Source: Dictyostelium discoideum
Lineage: Eukaryota
DNA: 64,000 nt
Direction of reading: 5' to 3'
Assembly (NCBI GenBank): GCA_000004695.1
Contig: CM000152.2
Coordinates: 2,400,001 to 2,464,000 of the forward strand
This document shows positions 4,437-50,404 of the stretch, in pieces. The position numbers and the translations under genes are program-made. The notes under the pieces were generated by a model, which did not search any database, was not told the DNA's origin, and worked only from the letters and a program-made list of their open reading frames with translations. Numbering within the stretch: position 1 is the stretch's first letter; the number at the start of each line of letters is the position of its first letter.

Positions 4437-4850
4437 ATTATTTTATTTATTTTTTTTTTTTTAAAATTTTTCCACTTTTCTTTTTTATTTTTAATTTTTT
4501 TTTTTTTTCTTTTTTCTTTAATTTTTTTACTTTGTATCGCAACGGAAGGTCAGTTTTATTATTTTTGTTATAAACATCAAAATTTTATTTTTTTAAATTT
4601 TTTTATTTTTATTTTTTAAAATTTTTTTTTTATTTCTTGTCTCATTTTTATTTTATAGTTTTTAAAAAAATTTTATCATTATCATTAAAAATCTTTTATC
4701 GATAAAATAAAATTTATTTTTTGAAAAAAAATAAAATTTTAATAATAAGGTAAATCATCGATCTTTGATTTTTTCTTTTTTTAGTTTTTGGACATCTATC
4801 CCCATTTTTAAATCTTTTATAAATTTAATTAATTTCAAATTTTTTTTTTT

Positions 4851-6238: not shown

Positions 6239-9200
6239 TGGTGATAATAATAATAATAGATCAATTACATCACAAATACAAACACCACCAACAACACCAC
6301 AAAAGCAAACTATACCAACAACACCAACAACACCAACAACACCAACAACACCACAAACAAGACCTAGAACACCACCAACAACACCACAAACTAGATCTAG
6401 AACAACACCACCAACACCACCAACACCACCACAAACTAGATCTAGAACACCACCAACAACACCACCACCACAAACTAGATCTAGAACACCACCAACAACA
6501 CCACCACCACAAACTAGATCAAAAACAGCAACAATAACAACAACAACAACAACAACAACAACCACTAAAACACCACCAACAACACCACAAAAACAAACAC
6601 CAACCCCACAAAAACAAACACCACCAACCCCACAAAAACAAACACCACCAACAACACCACAAAAACAAAAAGCACCAACAACACCACAAAAACAAAAAGC
6701 ACCAACAACACCACAAAAACAAATAGCACCAACAACACCACAAAAACAAATAGCACCAACAACACCACAAAAACAAACAGCACCAACAACACCACAAAAA
6801 CAAACAGCACCAACAACACCACAAAAACAAACACCACAAAGAAAAACACCTAGAAAAAAGAAAACTCCACTAAGACCAATAATAAAAAAGAAAACTTTGG
6901 CAGAAATTATGGAAACAGAGAGACCAAAATTTGGTGAAACTGAAGATGACTTAATTCAAAATATACAACACACTGAAAGACCACCATCATTATCTTTATC
7001 ACTTCAAGGTAAACAATTACCAATTCCATTTAATTTAGATGAAGAAACTTTAAGTATTACTAGTAAACTTTCAAATTATTCCTTAAAATCACCAAATAGA
7101 AATAATTCAAATAATTCAAATAATAATAAAATAGATAAATCAAATGATACAATTAATAATAATAATAATACAAATAATATAAATAATATAAATGATAAAA
7201 ATAATAAGAGTAATAGTAATATTAAAAAAGTTGATAGTAAACCATTAAATAAGAGTGGTGATATTAGAAGCTTTTTCTCAAAAGTGAATAAAGATAGTTT
7301 AATTAGTAGTGCATCTAATGATAGTGACGATGAAATTCAACTTGTTAATATTAAAAGTCCAAATAAAAAGAGAACAAGAAGATCAGCTTTATTTGATGAT
7401 GATGATGATGATGATGATAATAATAATAATTTAAATGATATTGATAAAAGCACAAATGGCTTACTTGAAGTGAAGAGTGAAGATAGTGTAGAAATTTTAA
7501 ATAAACCATCAAGTGGTATTATTACTAGATCAAGAATCAATCAAAACTTAGATGAGTTTATGGAGAAAACTAAAGAAATTTCACCATCTCCTTCACCTAA
7601 AGCAAGTCCAAGTAAAGTTTCCAAATCTCCAACAAAATCAGTTAAACCATTTGAATTACCAAAACCAAATACTACTACTACAACCACCACAACTTCAAAT
7701 AATAAATCACCAAAGAAAAAGACAACAACCACTACAACTACAACTAGTAATTCAAATATAAAAGGATCAACACCAACTACTCCAAGTAAGAAATTAAGAA
7801 ATAGTTACGAGGATGATGATGATGATTATAATGAAGAAGATGATTTTTATTTTGAAGATAGATTTGATAATATAAATGATGAAGCAATAGCATCAGCATT
7901 GGCAGAGGATGAATTAGAAGAAGAGTTTTATCTTTCAAATTTCGAAGATAATAGTGAAAATAGCGAAGATGAAGATATGGAAGATATTGATCTTTCAGTA
8001 TTCAATCCAAAAGATGGTATACTTAACCTTCCACAACCAAAGAAAACAACAACTACAACAACTACAACAACAACAACAACAACAACAACAACAGGATCAA
8101 TGAATAGATTTAGTTTTAATGGTATGGCTGGTGGTGCAGATGATGATGATGACGACGACGATGATTATAATGATGACGATGATGATGAGTATCAAGGACC
8201 ACGTGATATTTCAGAACCGCATGTTGAATTGAATTCAAAAGATTCTAAAAAATCTGAAAAAGAAGATCATCTATTCAATATTCATAATAACTTTATAGAT
8301 GAATATCAAAAGATTCTCGCTGATGAACGTTTCTTTTCAAAGGATGACAATAATAATAATAATAATATCAATAGTAGTAAAATCAAAGCACTAGCAGAGA
8401 TTAAAACCCAAGTAGCACCAAAGAAAGGTGGAAAATGTAATTTTATGAACAACAATAGAGTAAATCCAGTTCCTCATAGAACACTTGATGAATTAAGAAA
8501 GAGAACAAGAATTCAAAGAGGTCAAACAGGTGAAGATTTATACAGAGAATTAGAGAATGAGAAAAACAAAACTCATGACAGTGATGATAGTGACGACAGT
8601 GACGACGATAGTGACGATGACCAAGTGGATGACAATGATAGTGAATTCAATGTTAAAGTTGTAAATGATAATAGATACTATGACAGAATCACAGCCATTG
8701 GTAATAATGCAGCTGTTGCACCAGCACCACCAAAAGATCCAGTGGTGGTACCACATCAAAAAGGTAAGAGAGTCAATTATTACAAGAGAATTACAATCAC
8801 TCCTCCTGGTCAACCAATGTCAATCATGGAGATGAAAGCTCTCAAATATATCGAGACTAGAAGAAAAGCAATAGCATTTGCAAGAAAGAAGAACCAAGAA
8901 TTGATCAATACACCATTCTTCACCAATATAACACAAGAGAATCCAGGTAGATACAATGCATTCGGTATCAATGAATATCAACTCAGAAGATTGGATTACT
9001 ATTGGGAAGTACTTCAAAGAAATGGTCTATTCACTCATGAATCTTTCCGTTATATTGCAAATGAATTGGGACTCAAATTTGAAACCATTCAAACCTGTCT
9101 CAAGAGTAGACGTGCAACTTATGCTGCTCATATCAACGAATTTCGTATTAATCATAAACCAATCACTTTAATGAGAAAAGATCAATTGGTTCATGAAATT

Positions 9201-10612: not shown

Positions 10613-11077
10613 ATGTCAGAAACCAAACCAGCCTCATCCAAACCAGCCGCTGCTGCCAAACCAAAGAAAGTCATTCCACGTGTAAGCAGAACAGGTGAAC
10701 CAAAGAGCAAACCAGAATCACGTTCAGCTCGTGCCGGTATCACTTTCCCAGTATCTCGTGTTGATAGATTATTACGTGAAGGTAGATTCGCTCCACGTGT
10801 TGAAAGTACCGCACCAGTCTATTTAGCTGCCGTCCTTGAATATTTAGTATTTGAAATTTTAGAGTTAGCTCACAATACTTGTTCAATCAGTAAAAAGACC
10901 CGTATCACACCACAACACATCAACTGGGCCGTCGGTAATGATCTTGAATTAAATTCTCTCTTCCAACACGTTACCATCGCCTACGGTGGTGTTTTACCAA
11001 CTCCACAACAATCCACCGGTGAAAAGAAGAAGAAACCATCAAAGAAAGCAGCTGAAGGTTCATCTCAAATCTATTAA
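10613..11077 (+). CDS. H2AX: Histone H2A variant H2AX
   Basis: Histone H2A fold: [54 protein letters not shown]...[34 protein letters not shown]. The extended C-tail ends ...SSQIY, an SQ-x-hydrophobic motif as in H2AX. Lys/Ala/Pro-rich N-terminal extension. Single exon. Confidence 0.88.
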
Positions 11078-11128: not shown

Positions 11129-11508
11129 CAAATGTACATAATAATCATTCCGCATATATAAAAAAAAAAAAAAAAATTGAATATCATAGTAAAATATCAT
11201 ATTTAATTTTTAAATAATTTAAGTATGTGTGTTGTTTATTTTATACAATTGATTAATAATAATATCAACTGTTTTTATAACAAAAGGTTTTTTTCAAAAC
11301 CACCACAAAAAAACAAATTTAAATTTCATAGCTTATATAAATATTCTATCTTTTTTTATTTTAAAATTAAAACTTGTAAAATTATCATTTTCACAAAAAA
11401 AAGAGGTAATACCACAAAAATTTTTAAAATATTTTTTTTTTATTTTTTTATTTTTTTTTTTTGAAAAGTTTCAATGTTTTATTTTTTTTAATTGTTAATT
11501 TAAATGTG

Positions 11509-31374: not shown

Positions 31375-32326
31375 ATGTCATCATTTGAACAAATTGCAAC
31401 TTATTTAAATAGTTTAAATGAAACTACACAAAAAATTCAATCTAAAAAATCAACCATTAATTCATCAAGGGACACTGTTGAATTTAGAGGGACAATAAAA
31501 TCTGTAACTAATCGAAAAATTAAAAAAAAATAAAAAAAAAATAAAAAAAAAATAAATAAAAAAAATTTTAACTAATCAAAATAATTTTTTTTTTTTTTCC
31601 TATTTTTAATTTTTCTATTTTTAATTTTTTATTTTTTTTATTTAATTTTATCCTTAGGATATCGAAAATGGTAAAACACTTATAAATAATATAAAACAAC
31701 AATTATCAGGATTTTCAAGAGCAGATAGAGTTAAAGTAAATAAATTAACAGGTCAATTCAATGAATTGACAAAACAATTTGAAAAAGAGAGTACAGAAAT
31801 TATAAATTTACAATTAAGAAATGCAATTGGTTCAGGTGGTAGATCAGCATCATTATCAATAAATAATAGAGATGCATCAAGTAGATCAGGTTCATTAGCA
31901 GGTAGAATACATCCAGTTCATAATAATAATAATTTTAATAATAATAATAAAGGTTATAATAATAATGATGATGATGAAATTAAATTACAAACATTGGAAA
32001 TTACATTATCAAATGCAGAACCAGTTGAGGAATTAATTTTACAAGAATATAATACAGAAGTTCAAACATTAGTTAAAGATTTAACAATGTTAAAAGAGAT
32101 TTCAAATGATTTACATTTATTAACAACAGAACAACGTGCACCATTAGAACAAGCAAGTAAAAATGTTGATATGGTTGAAATGAATGTTTCTCAAGGTAAT
32201 CAAGAATTAGTAAAAGCAAATCAGTATGCTTGTAGTGCTCGTAAGAAAGTCGTAATAATTGTAATTTTAGTTTTAATAGTCATTGGTTTAGTCGTAGGTT
32301 TATGTGTTGGTTTGGTTAAAAAATAA
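31375..32326 (+). CDS. Syntaxin-type Q-SNARE with a C-terminal TM anchor, 2 exons (31375..31503, 31658..32326)
   Basis: Exon 1 is MSSFEQIATYLNSL...GTIKS with donor GTAACT. Exon 2 has a SNARE motif ...TEQRAPLEQASKNVDMVEMNVSQGNQELVKANQY followed by KKVVIIVILVLIVIGLVVGLCVGLVKK (tail anchor). Confidence 0.7.
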
Positions 32327-32626: not shown

Positions 32627-33795
32627 TTTTTTTTTTTAACTTTTTTTGAATGAAAAAATAAAAAAAATAATAATAATAATAAATAATCACCCCTGTAAAC
32701 TACTTATAACCATTTTAGTGTGAATTTTTTCAAAACCCTAAAATCCAGAAATTTAGGAAAAATTAAAAAAAAAAAAAAAATCAACTATCAAGATCTTTTT
32801 TTTTTTTTTTTTTTTTTTTTTTTAGTATAGATCATTTATCCTTTTCTTATAAATTTATTTATTATTATAGTATGTAATGATCTAAAAAATCGAATATAGT
32901 AAATCAAAATTAATAAAAGAATAAAATAGAAAATCATTGTATTTTTTACTTTATTTTATTATAATAGTAATAAATATAGATATATATATATATTTTTTTT
33001 TTTTTTGTAAAGAAAAATAATAAATTTATAAATAAAATAAAATGAAATAAAATAAAATAGTAATAGAAATTATAATAATAATAATGTTACAAAAAATATA
33101 TATATATATATTTTTAAATAGACACATGATGTCACATATAATTTCTATAATAAAACCATATTTTAAATAATAATTTTAAAAAATAAATATAATCAATAAT
33201 TAAATACAAAAGAGGAAATATGTTTATACATATATATCTGATTGGTTTTAAATTAATAATAATAACGCTACACTACACCTCACCACTCTCATATAGATAC
33301 ATAGATTTAAATTGTACAATTCACTCACACATTAATAAAATAATAAAAAAATAAATAAATAAATAAATTAAAAATATTTATGTACCCCTACAATCACATA
33401 TTGTTTTTTTTTTTTTTTTTTTTTTTTTTTATTATTTTTAAGTTATCCAAAAAATAAATCAAAAAAAAAAAACTAAACACAATTCTTATTATTTTTTTCC
33501 TTTTTATTTTTATAAATATACAATTTACTAATAATTTTATATCTATATTAGAATATTATTTTTTGTAATATAGCTTCAAATTATTTATTTTATTATTTTT
33601 ATTTTCTTTAAATTACACAAATTAAAAAAAAAAAAAACAAACCAAAAAAAAAAAAAACAAACCAAAAAAAAATAATAATAAAACATAACCAAAACAAAAC
33701 AAACAAACAACAACAATAACAACACAGATAAAAAAAACAAACCAAAAAAAAAAAAAAAAATTAAAAAATTAAAAAGAAGAGAATAAAAAAAAAAA

Positions 33796-36700
33796 ATGCA
33801 ACCCAAAGATTATATGAGTAGTTCTCATGCCAATTGGGAAAATATACAAATTGATGTAAGTAGAAAAAAAAAAAAAAAAAAAAGTAATCCAAATCAAATT
33901 CCAACCCATATAAATTTTTTATCCTTCTTTTTTTATATCCCCTTTTTTTTTTTTATTAATTAATTAATTAATTAAAAATAAATAGTCATTTACAAGTTGG
34001 ATTAATCAACATTTATCAGAGAGAGGCCTATCAGTTAAAGATTTATCAGTAGATTTTCAAGATGGAGTATTATTGTTAAATTTATTAGAGATATTATCAG
34101 GTAAAAAGATTGCAAGATATGTTAGATCACCAAAGTTTTTACAACATAAAATTGATAACATTATGATTGCATTCAATTTCATGGAGAAAGCATTTGACAT
34201 CAAAGTTTTTGGTTGTAATGCAAAAGATATAGTAGATGGTAATTTAAAACAAACTATGGGTGTAATCTTTCTTTTAATTCAAAAGATTAAAGTTAATTTA
34301 CATTTAGATCATTTACAAGAACAACAAGGTGAAACAACTGGTACAACAACAACAATAACATCTACAAATACTACAACAACACCAACAAAACCAAGATTCT
34401 ACAGAGCTAGTATGCAAGTAAATGCCGCAAATAGATTCTCTCATATCTCTCCAAACAAAGATCAATCATCTTCAACAGTAGCAACAACAACAACAACAAG
34501 TACTTCTGTAGTACAACCACAACCACAACCAACTACAGCCACCCCAACAACAACAACAGCAACCACTTTAACACCACCAGTTGCATCTCAACAACCAGTA
34601 TCGACAGCGCCAGCCACAGTAACACCATCAACAGTTATACCAACAGTTACACCATTGAATACCACCACCACCACCACCACCGCTACATCTACCTCAACTA
34701 ATGTACCAACAGCAACAACAAATGTACCACCAACAGCAACAACAACAACAACAGGAACAAGAATTTCCCCAACAACAGGTGTATCAGTTAGTACGATTAG
34801 AAGTAAATTTTTATTTGAAGGTGGTACAGGTAATACAACAGGTGGTAATGAAAAATATAATACATACTCACCAGGTAGTGGTAATACTAGTGGTGTTGTT
34901 GGACCATCAACATCATCATCATTAAATATATCATCAGAAAGAGTATTAAAAAGAACAGAATCAGGTTATCTTATTTCTGGTGGATTATCATTAAGTGGTA
35001 GTGGTAGTGGTGGTATTCATGAACCATTACAACGTACAGTTAGTTTAATTGAAATTAAATTAAATGATCATCAAAGTAAATTCTACGATTTGAAAAAGAT
35101 AATTTTCATGCAATCGGTTATTCGTGGTTATTTAGTGAGATCTAAATGGAGAAATGTATTAGAGAAATATAAACAACATTTAAATGAATATAAAAAACAT
35201 TTTATGAATAATAAAAAGGCATATCGTGGATTAATACGTGTTCAAGCAATAGTTAAAGGAAAGATTCAAAGAAAGAAACTCTTTAAAATGTTCCCACTTT
35301 ATCGTAGAAATGAAATTGTCAAAGAGATTCTCTCCACAGAGGACAAGTATGTAACGTCGTTGGCTATGGTGACAACCCACTATTTGAAGCCAAGTGAAGC
35401 TTTTCTATCGACTCAACAAGTTCGTAGTATTTTCTCACAGATTGAGATCATCCATCGTTACAATAGTTTAATTTTGGAGAAATTAGTATCGAGAAATAAG
35501 ATTTGGTATTCGTCAGGTCAAAAGATTGGCGATATTTTCATAGAAATGTCTGCTTTCTTAAAGGTGTACACCATCTATGTAAACAATTACAATAACTCTA
35601 TCCAAACGATTACCGAGTGTATGGAGATACCAAAGTTTGCATCGCTTTTGGAAAAGAATCGTAACCAATTCGGCTTGGATTTATCTGCATTCTTAATTGC
35701 ACCAATTCAACGTATTCCTCGTTATATTCTATTATTACAAGATTTGTTGAAAAATACTAAAGAGTCACATCCAGATCACCAAGATCTTTCATTGGCTTTA
35801 AAGAAAATGAAAGATGTTGCTGAATATGTCAATGAAAAGAAGAGAGAGGCTGAGAATCTTAATCAAGTATTAACCATTCAATCTTCATTAACTGGTAAAT
35901 TCAATAATTTAGCTGAACCACATAGAAGATATGTTAAAAAGGGTACTTTAATTTCAAATGATAAAATTCATCTTTACTTTTTATTCAATGATTTATTAGT
36001 TAAAACAGAGAATAAAATCGTTAGCAAAATTCGTGACTCTGCTCGTTTATCAAATAATAATTCAAGTGATAAAAATTCAAAATCAACTTTTCATTCACCA
36101 AAAGAAATCATTAATGAAGGTAAATCAAAATATTTAAATTCTTACTTTTTAGCTGGTTCTTCATTAGTTGATTCAAATCCTGATGGTTTCACTTTTCAAA
36201 TTATTGGTGTTGGTGATGCAAATGAATTAAATAGTCAAATCAATAATCAAATCAATAATCAAAATAATAATCAAAATAATAACCAAAATAATAATCTAAA
36301 TAATAATAATGATGATTCACCAATTTTATCATTTTCACCATTTTCTTCATCATTCGCTTCAACAATTACAAATAGTTTAAGTTCTATTGGTAATAGTAAT
36401 AATGTAAATAATAATAATAATACCTCTTCAAATAGTGGTTTTGTAAATAGTAGTAATAATAATATAAATATTGTAAATAGTAATGGATCATCACCATTAA
36501 CAAATAGTGGTCATGGTTTAAATAGTTCATTTGGTATTAGTAGTAATAATAATAATAATTTAACAATGCCAACTACATCAATTCAATTAGAAGCATTATC
36601 ATTAAATGAGAAAATGACATGGATGGGTGAATTGGATGAATGTATTTTTCAACTTTTAGAGAAATCAAAAAGTAAAAAGAGATCATTGATAACTGATGCT

Positions 36701-39152
36701 GATGAGTTAACAACAGTACCATTTGATATATCAGTTGTAAAAGATTCAGAATTTTCAAATGTTTTAGAAAAGAAACATAGTGAAATCTCTTGGAGATCAA
36801 AGAAATTCTATTTAAAGAATACTCATCTCTATTATCATCGTTATTCGTCAACTGAATCTCCAAAAGAACCAACTAAAATCAAATGTATCAATTTAATACT
36901 TTGTTCAGTTAAATTGGCTCAAGTAGTTGATCATCCACATTGTTTCCAATTGATTACTCCATCAAGAATTTACTTTTTCAGTTGTGAAGATTCAACTGTA
37001 CTATTCCAATGGATCTCTTTAATTAGATTATCAATTAAAAAGAAATTGGAATCTTTGAAAGATGAAAATAATAATATTAATAATTTCACAAGTATCGCTA
37101 GTGCTACCTCTCCAACTTCTTCAAGTAGCAATACTACTCCAATAGTTGTACCAATAGCTTCTCATTCAAATGCTACAGGTTCTTTATCTGCTTCATTGGG
37201 TAGTTCTTTCTTAAATCAACAACAAAGATCTTTAGAACAACAACAACATTTAAATACTTCAAATTCAAATTTAACTCCATTAGCTTTATCTTCACAGGTA
37301 TTATATCATATTAATAATTTTATATCTACATCTACATCTACATCTGCATCACAATCACAATCACAATCACCATCACCTTCACCTTCACACTCTATCAATC
37401 AAAAACAAAAAATTCGAAAACTATCATTTTATCAAAGTAGGTCAAATACTCTCATTAATATCAATAATGATGAAGATAGACTGAATTCTTTTCCAACTTC
37501 TACTCTATCTGTTTCTTGTCTTTTAAATAATGATAACCATGGTAATAATGATTTTGATGGTAAATCCTTCACCAATAATATTGATATTACCACCACCACA
37601 ACTACAAATGATGATAATAATAATAATACTACTACTACACAAGTCAAAAAGGGGAAGGATTTATCTTGTTCAAAAGAATTAAACTGTTCTATTAGTCATG
37701 ATGACAATAGCAAAGGTAGTAGTGGTTACGGTAATAATAGTTGTGGTGATAATATTAATAATGATGAAAGTTTGGCACAAAAAAATTTTAATTCTATAAT
37801 ATCTTTTTTTTTAAGCACAAAAAAATTCATTAAATCTCCTAAAAGGACTATCTCTACTTCTTTCCTTTTTTCTTAAAAAAATTCTATTTATATCTTTCCT
37901 TTCTTTGTAAAAATGTATTTTTTTTTTTTCTTTTTTTGGTAAATCTATTTTTTATTTTTTTTTTATTTTTTTTATTTTTTATTTTTTATTTTATGTGTGT
38001 GTGTGAATTGAAATCATTTTAATTTGAATAATATTAATATTAATTTATCTTTTTTATAAAAAAATAATTAAGGATTCAATATTAAATATTCCAGGTAATA
38101 ATAATTGTGCAGAATGTGGAGCATCAGATCCATCATGGGTTTCAATTAATTATGGTGTTGTAGTTTGCTTAGATTGTTCATCAATTCATAAGAATTTACC
38201 AGAAGGTAATGTAAAATCAGTTAGATCGTTATCAGTTGCATTCTCTGATATCGTTAAAAAACAAGAAGGTAATATCAAAGCAAATAATAAATATGAAAAG
38301 AATATTCCATCAGGTTTAACAAAACCAAATCCAAAAGATTCTTATGAAATTAAATTATCTTGGATAAAAGCAAAATATATTAATAATAATAATAATAATA
38401 ATAACTCTCAAAATGGAGATTCAACAACACCAACACCAACACCAACTTCAACTACAATTCATGTAAATAATGATTCTACACCTACTTCACCAAATTTAAA
38501 TTCACAATCATCACCACCACCAACAGCAACAACAACACAAACTGAAAATGTAAAATTAGATAATGGTAGATCATCACCAACACCAACACCAACACAAACT
38601 GAAAATAATAATAATAATGTATTAACACCAACAACAACAACAACAAATACTACTACTTCAACTACAACTGGTAGTAGACCAACAACACCAACAATATTAA
38701 ATAATGAAGAAGAACATATTCAAGGAATAAATTTAAAGGATAGTACTGATACATCAAATGGAAAAGGAACATGGAGTCGTGGTAGTTCACATGCAATCAC
38801 TGAAAGAAAAACAAGTTTCTTGGATAAACCACGTGTTCCAGTTAAGAAAGAACATCAAGGTTATTTATTTAAAACAAGTTCTCCAACTTCAAATAATTCA
38901 AGTGATTGGAAGAAATATTTATTCGTTTACAAGAATGACGTTTTAACTTATTATAAAGTTTCAAAGAAAAATAAAAGAAAAGAAAAAGGTATCATTGATT
39001 TATTCCATTCAGTTAAACAAGAAAGTAGACCAAAACAAAAATATTCCTTTACTCTTGTAACCTCTCAAAGATTATATTTCTTGGCTTCTGAAACTGAAGA
39101 AGAAATGAAAATTTGGTTAGATGTTTTATCTTCTCATACAACTCATTAAAAA
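33796..39152 (+). CDS. gxcDD: Multidomain Rac-GEF with CH domain, IQ motif, DH (RhoGEF), PH, ArfGAP zinc finger and C-terminal PH. The architecture matches Dictyostelium GxcDD. At least 3 exons (33796..33855, 33986..~37730, ~38095..39152)
   Basis: Exon 1 is MQPKDYMSSSHANWENIQID with donor GTAAGT. Exon 2 begins SFTSWINQHLSERGLSVKD... (CH domain), then the IQ-like IIFMQSVIRGYLVRSKWRNV and the DH domain (EIVKEILSTEDKYVTSLAMV...LLQDLLKNT) and PH. The 3' exon encodes CAECGASDPSWVSINYGVVVCLDCSSIHKNL (ArfGAP CX2CX16CX2C) and a terminal PH domain (GYLFKTSS...KKYLFVYKNDVLTYYK...KIWLDVL). The exon 2/3 junction is ambiguous (see findings). Without splicing the ArfGAP and PH domains are lost. Confidence 0.7.
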
Positions 39153-39524: not shown

Positions 39525-40220
39525 ATGGATAATAATAAAAAAATTAGAGCAATTATTACTGGTGCAAGTGGAATGATTGGTGAAGGTGTTGTACAAAATG
39601 CAATTGAAAGTGATGAAGTTGAAAAGATATTAATTGTTGGTAGAAGAGAATCTGGATTTAAGAATGAAAAAGTTAAAGAAATTTTACATAATGATTTTTT
39701 AGATTTAACAAATATTCAAAATGAATTCATTGGATATAATTCAGTATACTTTTGTGCTGGTGTTTCATCAGTTGGATTGAATAGAGAAACTTATGAAAAA
39801 TTAACAGTTGATATGCCAATGGAAATGTTAAAAAAATTTGAAATTGTAAATAATATGAAATCAAAGGATGATAATGATTGTACATTCATTTATATAACAT
39901 CGGCATTAACAAATTCCGATTCTTGGTTAATGTGGTCACAAGTTAAAGCAAAAGCAGAGAATCAAATTATATCTTCAAATTTCAATAAAACATTTGCATT
40001 CCGCCCAGCATGGATACAACCAAATATACCAGGTTTAAAAAATGCATATAAAACCTATAAATACATAAGTTGGATGTATCCAATTGGCCGATCAATCACT
40101 CAAAATGGATTTGTTACTTTAAGAGAGTTAAGCAGAGCAATGATACATGCTTCAATAAATGGTTATAATTCAAATATAATTCATGGTAGTGATATGGTTA
40201 AATTATCTCTAATTAAATAA
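39525..40220 (+). CDS. NAD(P)-binding Rossmann-fold protein (atypical short-chain dehydrogenase / NmrA-like), paralog A
   Basis: The N-terminal KIRAIITGASGMIGEGVVQ is a G-x-x-G-x-x-G dinucleotide-binding motif. Single exon, 231 aa. Confidence 0.65.
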   Translation: MDNNKKIRAIITGASGMIGEGVVQNAIESDEVEKILIVGRRESGFKNEKVKEILHNDFLDLTNIQNEFIGYNSVYFCAGVSSVGLNRETYEKLTVDMPMEMLKKFEIVNNMKSKDDNDCTFIYITSALTNSDSWLMWSQVKAKAENQIISSNFNKTFAFRPAWIQPNIPGLKNAYKTYKYISWMYPIGRSITQNGFVTLRELSRAMIHASINGYNSNIIHGSDMVKLSLIK

Positions 40221-43616: not shown

Positions 43617-43913
43617 TTTTTTTTGTTTTGTTTGAATGATAATTATAATTCGTTTTTTAGAAAATAAAATTTTTTTTTTTTTTTTTTTTTTTTAATTAAA
43701 ATTTTTAAAAAATAATTTTGGAAATAGGATTTAAATAATAAGGGTATTAATATTAGATTTGAAAAATTGTTGGTTTCAAATAAAATAAAATATTTTCTAT
43801 TGTTTTGGAAATATTAATGTAGTTTATATACAAATAAAAAATTTTTTTTATACCATAAATTGACAAAAGTATAAAATTAAGTTTAGCTAAAAAAATTTTA
43901 TTACATCAAAAAT

Positions 43914-43986
43914 GCCTGGATGGCTCAGTAGGCAGAGCGAGCGGCTGTTAACCGCTAGGTCCATGGTTCGATCCCATGTCTAGGCG
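43914..43986 (+). tRNA. tRNA-Asn (anticodon GTT)
   Basis: Cloverleaf read by eye. Acceptor GCCTGGA/TCTAGGC, D-arm GCTC..GAGC, anticodon stem AGCGG/CCGCT with loop CTGTTAA (GTT), T-arm CATGG-TTCGATC-CCATG. Followed by T5 at 43991-43995. Confidence 0.9.
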
Positions 43987-44000
43987 ATACTTTTTAAATG

Positions 44001-49616: not shown

Positions 49617-50296
49617 CTTTTTTATTTATTTGATTTAATTTATTTCGAAATAAATAAAAAAAAAAAATAAAAAAAAAAAAAGAAAATTTTATTACAAAAA
49701 AAAAAAAAAAAAAAACTAGACGAAATGAAAAAAAATAAAAAATAAAAAAAATAAAAATAAAAAAAAATAAAAATGAAAAAAATCAATAGTTTTTTTTTTA
49801 TGAGAAATTAAACAAAAATATAAATAAAAAAAAGGTGGGATGGTAATGATTTATTAAAAATGATATTAAATAATTTAAATTCTATTAAAATAAAAATTGT
49901 TGTTATTTGATTTTTTTTTCTTTTTTTTTTTTTTTTTTGGAAATCCCTTAATAATTTATTTATTAAAAATTAATTGATAAAATAAATAAGAAAAAAGCTA
50001 AAAATGTCAATTTAAAATTATAAAGTATCATTATAAATAAATACAATCTTAAAAATTCAAACAAAATAATGAATCATTTATAATTGTTTTAAAGTTTTTT
50101 TTTTGTTTTTTTTGTTGTTGTTTTTGTTTGTAGTAGGAATGGTTTAGTTGTTTTTTGTTTTGTTGTTGAAGCAAAAAAACTCGAGTTGGAACTTCAAAGA
50201 ATTGAAAAAATGATTTAAAAATTTTTGTTTCACCAAGATTTTAAAAACTTTTAAAATCGGCGCCAAAAATGAATAAAAAAATATTTTTTTCAACAA

Positions 50297-50368
50297 GTTT
50301 CGATAGCTCAGTGGAAGAGCAAGCGACTGCAAATCGTTAGGTCGCCAGTTCAATCCTGGTTCGGAACT
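50297..50368 (+). tRNA. tRNA-Cys (anticodon GCA)
   Basis: Acceptor GTTTCGA/TCGGAAC, D-arm GCTC-AGTGGAA-GAGC, anticodon stem AGCGA/TCGTT with loop CTGCAAA (GCA), T-arm GCCAG-TTCAATC-CTGGT. Followed by T6 at 50372-50377. Confidence 0.88.
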
Positions 50369-50404
50369 TTCTTTTTTGTATCCCAATTTTCCGAACTTCG
50401 TAAA

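What the first reader, a model, noticed from the sequence alone, without database searches (positions are those of the whole stretch)
33796..39152. GxcDD-type CH-IQ-DH-PH-ArfGAP-PH gene: the ArfGAP and PH exon is recovered only by inferring a 364-bp intron with near-duplicate donor and exon-start sequences
Unspliced, the ORF stops at 37876 after junk (KKFIKSPKRTISTSFLFS*), and a separate open frame at 38073-39149 encodes a textbook ArfGAP C4 finger plus PH domain. The only phase-compatible junction I found is donor G|GTAATAATAGTTGTG at 37731 and acceptor ...ttccag|GTAATAATAATTGTG at 38094, giving ...SSGYG-NNNCAECGASDPSW.... The 15 nt at the start of the intron and at the start of the next exon differ at one position, which makes alternative splicing or annotation slippage plausible. 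Total length about 1620 aa.
Basis: partly seen in the sequence, partly recalled or inferred. Interest (0 to 1): 0.5.

Follow-up and report, generated by a model that had tools for sequence, protein, structure and literature searches.

The report
gxcDD gene: published splice junction doubtful

Summary
The sequence facts are correct. ATG is at 33796 and the stop at 37874-37876. GT is at 37731 and AG at 38094, giving a 364-nt gap. The 15-mers differ at one base. The product is 1619 aa with CH, two IQ, DH, PH, ArfGAP-like and PH domains.

- The junction is not the only phase-compatible one.
- The "junk" tail is not junk.

Against Dictyostelium firmibasis:
- The ORF stays open for 192 versus 165 codons and ends at the same stop.
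- The last 102 nt are 95% identical, and all five differences are synonymous.
- Similarity collapses after the stop and resumes exactly at 38073. DSILNIP has two differences, both synonymous.

In Tieghemostelium lacteum an unambiguous phase-0 intron (Q|GTATGT...TAG|ENPLNDP) sits at the position of window 37298/38072.

Best reading: the conserved intron is 37298-38072.
- Spliced, it gives about 1482 aa and keeps the family motif ILNIPGNxxC.
- Retained, it gives a 1316-aa GEF-only protein with a conserved tail.

No transcript data could be reached, so this remains an inference. RT-PCR would settle it.

The parts
33796..33855 (+). Exon 1, encoding MQPKDYMSSSHANWENIQID (20 codons).
   Evidence: ATG and frame read from the sequence. 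The published forward primer ATGCAACCCAAAGATTATATG matches at 33796. The D. firmibasis model has an identical exon 1.
33856..33985 (+). Intron 1: 130 nt, GTAAGTAG...AAATAG, phase 0, GC 15%.
   Evidence: The homologous intron in D. firmibasis is GTAAGTAA...AACAG, and its interior is poorly conserved with indels.
33986..37297 (+). Core of exon 2. CH domain to about 34285. IQ-like motifs at 35093-35176 and 35219-35308. DH/RhoGEF domain at 35315-35833. PH region. PH domain at 36746-37039. Low-complexity linker ending ...LTPLALSSQ.
   Evidence: Pfam hits. Coordinates computed. dN/dS is 0.12 against D. firmibasis.
37298..37299 (+). Proposed conserved splice donor CAG|GTATTATAT, phase 0.
   Evidence: It is homologous in position to the T. 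lacteum donor CAG|GTATGT after ...SPLNAQ. It lies in a 53-nt run (37275-37327) of perfect identity with D. firmibasis, the third longest of 625 runs in the gene.
37298..37876 (+). Coding extension read when the 37298 donor is not used: 192 codons plus TAA (37874-37876). It includes the conserved stretch INQKQKIRKLSFYQSRSNTLININNDEDRL.
   Evidence: Open in both species (192 vs 165 codons) and ending at the same stop. dN/dS is 0.38. The chance of no stop in 192 codons at this composition is 2e-7. GC is 22-29%, exon-like.
37731..37732 (+).
   Evidence: It lies in a poorly conserved stretch next to an 18-nt indel. Its identical run is only 8 nt, rank 164 of 625.
37775..37876 (+). Conserved C-terminal tail AQKNFNSIISFFLSTKKFIKSPKRTISTSFLFS plus stop.
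   Evidence: 97/102 identical to D. firmibasis. The 5 differences (37798, 37816, 37864, 37870, 37873) are all at codon position 3 and synonymous, and the stop is conserved. p is about 4e-4. There is no Rfam hit and no significant RNA fold.
37877..38072 (+). Truly non-coding intron core: AT-rich (GC 11%), with a (TG)6 repeat at 37994-38005. It ends in the proposed acceptor aattaag|G (AG at 38071-72).
   Evidence: 37877-38057 is 38% identical to D. firmibasis counting gap columns, with 46-nt and 7-nt indels. All three frames contain stops.
38073..38094 (+). DSILNIP and the first base of the Gly codon.
   Evidence: 19/21 identical to D. firmibasis, and both differences are synonymous. Co-linear with T. 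lacteum GAA AAT CCA TTA AAT GAT CCA directly after its acceptor. T. lacteum has no AG at the equivalent of 38094. Matches the family motif. pLDDT is about 87 in the model.
38095..39149 (+). Rest of the last exon. ArfGAP-like domain with C4 finger at 38106-38177 and Lys in place of the Arg finger at 38190-38192. Low-complexity linker. PH domain at 38850-39137. TAA at 39147-39149.
   Evidence: Pfam ArfGap and PH. Fold match to centaurin alpha-1 and ACAP1, TM 0.82-0.84. Published primers match at 38106 and 39129.

Best explanation
The locus is the known D. discoideum gene gxcDD, a multidomain Rac-GEF with domain order CH, IQ, IQ, DH, PH, PH, ArfGAP-like, PH.

The intron that joins the GEF half to the ArfGAP-PH half is most likely the phase-0 intron 37298-38072 (CAG|GTATTA...TTAAG|GAT, 775 nt).

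- Spliced: the product reads ...LTPLALSSQ|DSILNIPGNNNCAECG..., about 1482 aa and 165 kDa. This keeps the N-terminal ArfGAP motif.
- Not spliced: translation runs on for 192 codons to TAA at 37874. This gives a 1316-aa (146 kDa) GEF-only protein that lacks ArfGAP-PH and ends in a conserved basic/hydrophobic tail.

Shown here: the sequence, the domains, cross-species conservation, the intron position in orthologues, and the synonymous-only substitution pattern.

Inferred: that both RNAs exist in D. discoideum, that the weak donor sets their ratio, and that the tail has a function. I guess membrane or kinase-site related (RKLSF, KRTIS), but this is not tested.
For: 1. Identity.

2. Acceptor at 38072.
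- Conservation with D. firmibasis is 38% (gap columns counted) in 37877-38057 and 10/15 in 38058-38072.
- It then jumps to 19/21 in 38073-38093, where both differences are synonymous.
P at -5 is present in 58% of homologues and L/I at -9 in 59% (alignment).
- The T. lacteum exon starts ENPLNDPTNKVC directly after TAG|, in the same register. Its downstream frame opens only there.
- The AlphaFold model places residues 1-10 at pLDDT about 87 and aligns over 105/106 columns with centaurin alpha-1.

3. Donor at 37298.
- It is the only consensus-like phase-0 GT.
- It is at the homologous position to the T. lacteum donor Q|GTATGT.
- It is centred in a 53-nt run of perfect identity, rank 3 of 625, within a linker that is otherwise 68% identical.

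4. Read-through coding.
- The ORF is open in both species and ends at a shared stop, with dN/dS 0.38.
- The tail has 5/5 synonymous differences, p about 4e-4.
- The chance of no stop in 192 codons is 2e-7.
- The block has no RNA family hit or significant fold.
Against: - No transcript or peptide evidence could be obtained. The D. discoideum protein is absent from the searchable collections.
- A 775-nt intron with 77% A+T is atypical. The D. discoideum row of the table in PMC2483917 reads 89.13, 103, 142.85 and 158.36, which I take to be %AT, median, mean and SD of intron length.
- GTATTA departs from GTAAGT at positions +4 to +6.
- The published 1619-aa model may have had curator or EST support that I cannot see.
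- The D. firmibasis annotation used MAKER with Trinity transcripts (PMC11193728). It uses a third intron, 6660-6861, which keeps most of the extension in a long form. If that model is transcript-derived, the extension is not strictly specific to the short isoform there.
- Pfam alone favours DSILNIPG by only 2.9 bits.
- The T. lacteum read-through tail is not significantly similar to the D. discoideum tail.
- Only one close species supports the tail.
Confidence: 0.55

Rival explanations
1. The reader's junction, which is also the published one (37730^38095, 364-nt intron), is the real and major junction in D. discoideum. On this view DSILNIP is intronic there, and its conservation reflects 3' splice-site or branch-region constraint.
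For: - The sites are canonical GT-AG and phase-compatible, and they give exactly the published 1619 aa.
- The intron length and A+T content (84%) are closer to typical values.
- An equivalent GT and the CCAG|GT acceptor also exist in D. firmibasis.
- The extension up to 37730 is clearly coding.
Against: - It removes the conserved [LIV]Lx[IL]P part of the ArfGAP domain, costing 7.1 bits.
- The acceptor AG is simply the CCA GGT (Pro-Gly) codons and is absent in T. lacteum.
- The donor lies in a poorly conserved, indel-flanked stretch.
- The last 21 nt of intron 1 are much less conserved than DSILNIP.
- The paper did not test the junction.
- A retained-intron product is still needed to explain the conserved tail.
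Confidence: 0.3
2. The conserved block 37775-37876 is a non-coding element, such as a splicing regulator, an intronic RNA or a protein-binding site. On this view the open frame is incidental and no short protein is made.
For: - The block is more conserved (95%) than the neighbouring coding linker.
- Two other long perfect-identity runs in the extension (37431-37485 and 37817-37863) show no synonymous change at all. This hints at constraint at the nucleotide level.
- There is no AATAAA between the stop and 38072.
Against: - All 5 substitutions are third-position and synonymous in the exon-2 frame (p about 4e-4).
- The stop is conserved, and similarity collapses right after it.
- The matching reverse-strand frame (the one that would put all five differences at third codon positions) contains a stop, as read from the sequence.
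- There is no Rfam family above threshold (best hit is 20 bits against a gathering score of 50), and the fold z-score is -1.15.
Confidence: 0.1
3. The near-identical 15-mers at the intron start and the exon start mark an intron born by tandem duplication of an AGGT-containing segment, or they cause splice or annotation slippage.
For: The 16-mer occurs three times in the window with up to 2 mismatches, against 0.27 expected from shuffles. All three copies are in this gene. D. firmibasis keeps 12/15 similarity between its two sites (read).
Against: - The similarity extends only 1 nt to the left, so the second duplicated flank that the model requires is missing.
- The shared part is GGT AAT AAT (Gly-Asn-Asn). 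GTAATAATA occurs 28 times in the window.
- Only one register gives GT...AG, so there is no room for slippage (sequence).
- The orthologous intron in T. lacteum lies elsewhere.
Confidence: 0.05
4. There are two independent genes, a GEF gene ending at 37876 and a separate ArfGAP-PH gene.
For: The unspliced ORF ends in a conserved stop, followed by an AT-rich spacer.
Against: - The ArfGAP-PH frame has no in-frame ATG before the PH domain.
- A. subglobosum has one continuous ORF through both halves.
- The T. lacteum and S. polycarpum proteins are fused.
- An antibody to ArfGAP-PH detects GxcDD, and the signal is lost in a knockout that also removes the GEF part (PMC1914345).
Confidence: 0.01

Closest known systems
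GxcDD of Dictyostelium discoideum as published (Mondal et al. 2007, PMC1914345)
   Same: It is the same gene. The primers match exactly.
   Different: The comparative evidence here argues that the published junction clips the ArfGAP N-terminus. It also argues that the 144 residues before that junction belong to an alternative, ArfGAP-less product with a conserved tail. The computed mass is 179,744 Da against the 179,652 stated in the paper. This small difference is unexplained.
Tieghemostelium lacteum orthologue KYQ90529.1 (locus L002)
   Same: The architecture is the same. It has a single intron between PH2 and ArfGAP in phase 0 after Gln. The exon restarts [DE]xxLNxPxNxxC, co-linear with window 38073 onwards. 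It also has Lys in place of the Arg finger.
   Different: Its intron is 266 nt with a strong donor, GTATGT. The read-through ORF is only 31 codons, and its tail is not significantly similar.
Dictyostelium firmibasis KAK5582495.1 (locus L001)
   Same: The locus is syntenic (SNARE gene, gxcDD, epimerase-like gene). Nucleotide identity is about 85% in coding sequence. It has the same donor context, the same tail and stop, and the same DSILNIPG.
   Different: Its deposited model uses a 202-nt intron (6660-6861). That intron removes the tail and adds VVTFFLSIILLYNINLIWKIKK. This stretch cannot be coding in D. discoideum, which has a TGA at 38025 and frame-breaking indels.
Centaurin alpha-1 (ADAP1), ACAP and ASAP ArfGAP-PH proteins
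   Same: They share the ArfGAP zinc-finger fold (TM 0.82-0.84, 37-39% identity) followed by a PH domain, and the N-terminal LxxxPGNxxC motif.
   Different: The catalytic Arg is replaced by Lys, so GAP activity is doubtful (PMC2797641). The domain is fused to a Dbl-type GEF, which those proteins lack.
Alternative C-termini produced by intron retention (a general eukaryotic mechanism)
   Same: An unspliced intron is read in frame to an internal stop, which replaces the downstream domains.
   Different: Here the retained part is long (192 codons), exon-like in composition and under purifying selection. That is unlike the usual non-productive retention.

Membership tests
gxcDD gene of D. discoideum (PMC1914345) | Published gene-specific primers are present in the right order and orientation. 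| tested here: met
   Three of four primers match exactly, at 33796(+), 38106(+) and 39129(-). The fourth (ACTATTGTAATGGATGAT) was not found as an exact match.
gxcDD gene of D. discoideum (PMC1914345) | A 1619-residue product, a 4860-nt CDS, and domain order CH, 2 IQ, DH, PH, PH, ArfGAP, PH. | tested here: met
Pfam domains appear at the published coordinates. Direct sequence comparison was not possible because the protein is not in the collections.
ArfGAP domain (PF01412) | A CX2CX16CX2C zinc finger and a domain score above the gathering cut-off. | tested here: met
   CAECGASDPSWVSINYGVVVCLDC at 38106-38177. Scores are 70.8-80.7 bits against a cut-off of 28.7. The fold matches centaurin alpha-1 and ACAP1.
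ArfGAP domain (PF01412) | A catalytic arginine finger four residues after the last Cys (CX4R). | tested here: not met
   The sequence is CSSIHK, with Lys (AAG) at 38190-38192. PMC2797641 makes the same observation. The change is shared by D. firmibasis, T. lacteum and A. subglobosum, while S. polycarpum has Arg.
ArfGAP domain (PF01412) | The N-terminal motif [LIV]Lx[LIV]P(G)NxxC preceding the finger. | tested here: met
It is met only if 38073-38094 is exonic (ILNIPGNNNC).
Dbl-type RhoGEF (DH-PH) | A full-length DH domain followed by a PH domain. | tested here: inconclusive
   DH matches profile positions 1-180 of 180 with E = 7e-49. The DH-adjacent PH (664-910 in the paper) gives only a sub-threshold PH_alsin hit at 875-913. 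Pfam PH matched two stretches, but only the C-terminal one (1521-1616) was located. PH 941-1038 is taken from the paper.
   It is not unique, however: there are 82 compatible pairs.
   The T. lacteum intron is at Q|E in phase 0, equivalent to window 37298/38072, and it has no AG at the equivalent of 38094. A. subglobosum has no intron here.
   No D. discoideum cDNA or RNA-seq data were reachable. The junction 28-mer (37297^38073) and 34-mer (37730^38095) are absent from metagenome contigs.
Protein-coding retained intron / alternative C-terminus | The read-through frame is open and under purifying selection in related species. | tested here: met
   192 and 165 codons, the same stop, dN/dS 0.38, and 5/5 synonymous differences in the tail. 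Only one species pair is informative.
Protein-coding retained intron / alternative C-terminus | The unspliced mRNA is exported and translated. | not testable with these tools
   Needs RNA-seq, polysome profiling or mass spectrometry.
Intron created by tandem duplication of an AGGT segment | Both duplicated flanks are present (intron start similar to next exon start, and intron end similar to previous exon end). | tested here: not met
   Only the first pair is similar (15/16). The leftward extension is 1 nt.

The most novel reading that the evidence does not exclude
gxcDD encodes two conserved proteins from one transcript unit by regulated use of a weak donor at 37298.
- One is a GEF-plus-ArfGAP-like form of about 1482 aa.
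- The other is a GEF-only form of 1316 aa. Its 192-residue alternative C-terminus, including a 33-residue invariant basic/hydrophobic tail, lies entirely within the 'intron'.

On this reading the published 1619-aa GxcDD is a chimera of the two forms and may not exist in the cell.
Probability: 0.45. Interest if true: 0.45.

Novelty: already known. Interest (0 to 1): 0.3.

Why it matters
GxcDD has been studied as a 1619-aa protein. Constructs, antibodies and domain-interaction models (CH binding to ArfGAP-PH, autoinhibition) all rest on that model.

If the real junction is 37297^38073, three things follow:
- The ArfGAP-PH construct (residues 1269-1619) lacks seven residues of the ArfGAP N-terminal motif.
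- The long protein is about 137 residues shorter than published.
- A second, ArfGAP-less isoform that the ArfGAP-PH antibody cannot detect has been overlooked.

Functional, conserved alternative protein isoforms seem uncommon in Dictyostelium (my own understanding, not checked here). A clear example in a Rac/Arf signalling scaffold would therefore interest that field. It is also a caution about propagating D. discoideum gene models to new genomes. A single RT-PCR would decide the question.

Tried and rejected
1. Exact look-up of the 1619-aa model: not in the collection.
2. Two word-indexed homology searches found nothing. One was swamped by low-complexity words and the other had no candidates. 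Orthologues came only from the representative search.
3. P0003 (S. polycarpum) has no contig on record.
4. I tried to derive a Dictyostelium splice-site matrix from the window by ORF joining. It gave only 7 ambiguous candidate pairs, so it was abandoned. Splice-site strength was therefore judged only against GTAAGT, from general knowledge.
5. T. lacteum read-through tail against the D. discoideum tail: not significant (1055/5000 and 3225/5000 shuffles scored at least as well). I therefore do not claim deep conservation of the tail.
6. Pfam alone separates the two junctions by only 2.9 bits once the context is matched. The 8.7-bit gap seen was mostly a composition correction.
7. RNA-gene or RNA-structure explanations for the conserved block: Rfam gave only snoZ256 at 20 bits against a gathering score of 50, and the fold z-score is -1.15.
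8. No polyadenylation signal (AATAAA or ATTAAA) lies between the stop and 38072. Intron retention is therefore more likely than intronic polyadenylation.
9. The junction 28-mer and 34-mer for the two models are absent from metagenome contigs.
10. Tandem-duplication origin of the intron: rejected.
11. The D. firmibasis deposited intron as a guide: rejected for D. discoideum. Its acceptor region is not alignable in frame and contains a stop in D. discoideum.

Full report
**What is in the sequence.**
  - The ATG is at 33796.
  - A 130-nt first intron runs from 33856 to 33985 (GTAAGT...TAG).
  - A long ORF ends ...KKFIKSPKRTISTSFLFS* at 37874-37876.
  - A second open frame carries a C4 zinc finger and a PH domain and ends at 39149.
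- Joining G(37730) to GT(38095) removes 364 nt. This gives ...SSGYG-NNNCAECG... and a 4860-nt CDS of 1619 codons.
- The first 15 nt of that intron and of the next exon differ at one position.
- Pfam finds CH, RhoGEF (full length), PH, ArfGap and PH.
- Two IQ-like motifs lie at residues 395 and 439.

**Identity.**
- Three primers published for gxcDD match the window exactly, at 33796, 38106 and 39129 (PMC1914345).
- That paper describes a 1619-residue protein on chromosome 3 with the same domain coordinates.
- I could not compare sequences directly. The D. discoideum protein is absent from the searchable collections.
- The computed mass (179,744 Da) differs from the stated 179,652 by 92 Da.
- The paper never tested this junction.

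**The junction is not unique.**
- Enumeration gives 82 stop-free GT/GC...AG combinations.
- Only two acceptors keep the first cysteine of the finger.
- AG at 38093-94 is phase 1.
  - AG at 38071-72 is phase 0 and would keep DSILNIPG.
- Phase-1 donors include 37731 (ACG|GTAATA) and 37716 (AAG|GTAGTA).
- The only consensus-like phase-0 donor is 37298 (CAG|GTATTA).

**Orthologues.** The representative search returned four orthologues. Genomic loci were retrieved for three of them: L001, L002 and L003.
- Dictyostelium firmibasis, KAK5582495.1.
- Tieghemostelium lacteum, KYQ90529.1.
- Synstelium polycarpum, from EukProt.
- Acytostelium subglobosum, XP_012751963.1.

In A. subglobosum the GEF, PH, ArfGAP and PH domains lie in one uninterrupted ORF. 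This excludes a two-gene reading.

**Evidence that DSILNIPG is exon.**
- Conservation against D. firmibasis changes sharply along the interval.
  - 37877-38057 is 38% identical counting gap columns.
  - 38058-38072 is 10/15 identical.
  - 38073-38093 is 19/21 identical with no indel, and both differences are third-position synonymous in the exon-3 frame.
- By contrast, the last 20 nt or so of intron 1 are poorly conserved and contain indels.
- In 136 ArfGAP homologues the residues before the first Cys have clear preferences.
  - N at -3 in 98%.
  - G at -4 in 50%.
  - P at -5 in 58%.
  - L/I/V at -6 in 53%.
  - L/I at -9 in 59%.
- ILNIPGNNNC fits all of these.
- An HMM built from these homologues scores the two junctions 113.5 and 106.4 bits. 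Pfam alone gives 80.7 and 77.8.
- An AlphaFold model of 38073-38390 has mean pLDDT 89.7, and about 87 for residues 1-10. It aligns over 105 of 106 columns with centaurin alpha-1.
- T. lacteum gives the strongest single piece of evidence.
  - Its only intron in this region is ...SLSPLNAQ|GTATGTCAT...TATTTAG|GAAAATCCATTAAATGATCCA.
  - It is in phase 0, and the downstream frame opens exactly at the acceptor.
  - Its codons GAA AAT CCA TTA AAT GAT CCA ACT AAT AAA GTT TGT line up one for one with window GAT TCA ATA TTA AAT ATT CCA GGT AAT AAT AAT TGT.
T. lacteum (CCA ACT) does not have it.

**Evidence for the donor at 37298.**
- It is the position homologous to the T. lacteum donor. Compare ...NLTPLALS-SQ|DSILNIPGN with ...NGAPLSLSPLNAQ|ENPLNDPTN.
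- In D. firmibasis the site and its surroundings are identical over 53 nt (37275-37327). This is the third-longest perfect run of 625 across the whole gene. It sits in a linker that is otherwise about 68% identical.
- The 37731 site sits next to an 18-nt indel, in an 8-nt run that ranks 164th.

**The 'junk' is coding.**
- From 37298 the exon-2 frame stays open for 192 codons in D. discoideum and 165 in D. firmibasis.
- Both ORFs end at the same TAA, and dN/dS is 0.38.
- The chance of no stop in 192 codons at this composition is about 2e-7. The other two frames carry 5 and 42 stops.
- The last 33 codons, AQKNFNSIISFFLSTKKFIKSPKRTISTSFLFS, are identical in protein.
- Their 5 nucleotide differences are all third-position and synonymous, with p about 4e-4.
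- Similarity collapses directly after the stop.
- GC content is 22-29% here, against 11% in 37877-38072.
- There is no Rfam family above threshold, no significant RNA fold, and no open matching reverse frame (sequence).

**Most likely mechanism.**
- A weak phase-0 donor embedded in coding sequence (CAG|GTATTA) is either used or ignored.
- If used, 775 nt are removed and the GEF half is fused to an ArfGAP-like and PH module with an intact N-terminal motif. The product is about 1482 aa and 165 kDa.
- If ignored, the ribosome reads on to TAA at 37874. It makes a 1316-aa GEF-only protein with its own conserved tail.
- No AATAAA or ATTAAA lies between that stop and 38072. Retention therefore seems more likely than intronic polyadenylation.
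- The conservation and the intron homology are shown. The existence, ratio and function of the two RNAs in D. discoideum are inferred.

**Caveats.**
- I found no transcript evidence.
- A 775-nt, 77% A+T intron is unusual for this genome (PMC2483917 table row).
- The D. firmibasis model was built by MAKER from Trinity transcripts and the D. discoideum proteome (PMC11193728).
  - It uses a third intron (6660-6861) that keeps DSILNIPG but also keeps most of the extension.
  - Its extra residues (VVTFFLSIILLYNINLIWKIKK) cannot be coding in D. discoideum, which has a TGA at 38025 and 46- and 7-nt indels.
  - If that model is transcript-derived, splicing in this region may be heterogeneous.
- The T. 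lacteum read-through tail (31 codons...FNFLFSKKSKRISI*) looks similar in composition. It is not significantly similar by a shuffle test.
- Support for the tail therefore rests on one species pair.

**The near-duplicate 15-mers.**
- They are real: 3 hits with up to 2 mismatches against 0.27 expected.
- The shared part is Gly-Asn-Asn codons, and GTAATAATA occurs 28 times in the window.
- The similarity extends only 1 nt to the left.
- Only one register gives GT...AG.
- I see no evidence for a duplication-born intron or for slippage.

**ArfGAP status.**
- The finger and the fold are canonical.
- The arginine finger of CX2CX16CX2CX4R is Lys (38190-38192), as noted in PMC2797641.
- The module works like an ArfGAP-fold Arf- or lipid-binding unit and probably not like an active GAP.

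**Verdict.** This is a known gene, correctly recognised. However, it is probably not the conserved junction, and the dismissed tail is probably a real alternative C-terminus. The finding is of modest interest and can be tested directly by RT-PCR.

Noticed in passing
L001:6660-6861 (D. firmibasis KAK5582495.1): The deposited D. firmibasis model splices G|GTAATGATG...ATGAAG|TT. This removes the conserved tail and adds VVTFFLSIILLYNINLIWKIKK, a stretch that is not conserved or open in D. discoideum. The model is probably wrong, or represents a minor isoform.
   Followed up: partly
window 37431-37485 and 37817-37863: These are perfect-identity runs of 55 nt and 47 nt with D. firmibasis inside the read-through extension, ranks 2 and 5 in the whole gene. 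They show no synonymous change at all, which is more than protein constraint alone predicts. The first encodes KLSFYQSRSNTLININNDED.
   Followed up: no
window 38190-38192: The ArfGAP arginine finger is Lys in D. discoideum, D. firmibasis, T. lacteum and A. subglobosum, but Arg in S. polycarpum (CSAIHRHL) and in P0006. The loss is therefore not universal among the retrieved homologues.
   Followed up: partly
L002:4716-4811 (T. lacteum intron): The first 93 nt of the T. lacteum intron read in frame as VCHKKPRPKSLPPTPKPFNFLFSKKSKRISI, followed by a TAA stop at 4809-4811. The peptide is basic and hydrophobic like the D. discoideum tail, but not significantly similar by a shuffle test.
   Followed up: yes
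window 37994-38005: A (TG)6 microsatellite lies within a 46-nt stretch of the intron core that is absent from D. firmibasis.
   Followed up: no
window 33778-33824: A 47-nt run of perfect identity with D. firmibasis spans the last 18 nt of the A-rich 5' leader and the first 29 nt of the CDS. It ranks joint fifth among the identical runs in the gene.
   Followed up: no
window 10613-11077 and 11281-11326: A histone H2A ORF (Pfam Histone and Histone_H2A_C) is followed about 200 nt downstream by an Rfam histone 3' UTR stem-loop hit just above threshold (34.5 bits against 34).
   Followed up: partly
window 43913-43987 and 50296-50369: tRNA-Asn(GTT) and tRNA-Cys(GCA) genes, found by both ARAGORN and Rfam.
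   Followed up: no
window 31766-32326 and 39525-40220; L001 489-1401 and 8381-10385: Synteny is conserved: a SNARE/syntaxin gene upstream and an NAD-binding epimerase-like gene downstream. D. firmibasis has two tandem epimerase-like genes. I did not check for a second copy in the window.
   Followed up: no
whole gene model: The computed mass of the 1619-aa model is 179,744 Da, against 179,652 in the paper. One of the four published knockout primers (ACTATTGTAATGGATGAT) has no exact match in the window. Possible causes are strain differences (AX2 versus reference), a typo, or a different mass table.
   Followed up: no
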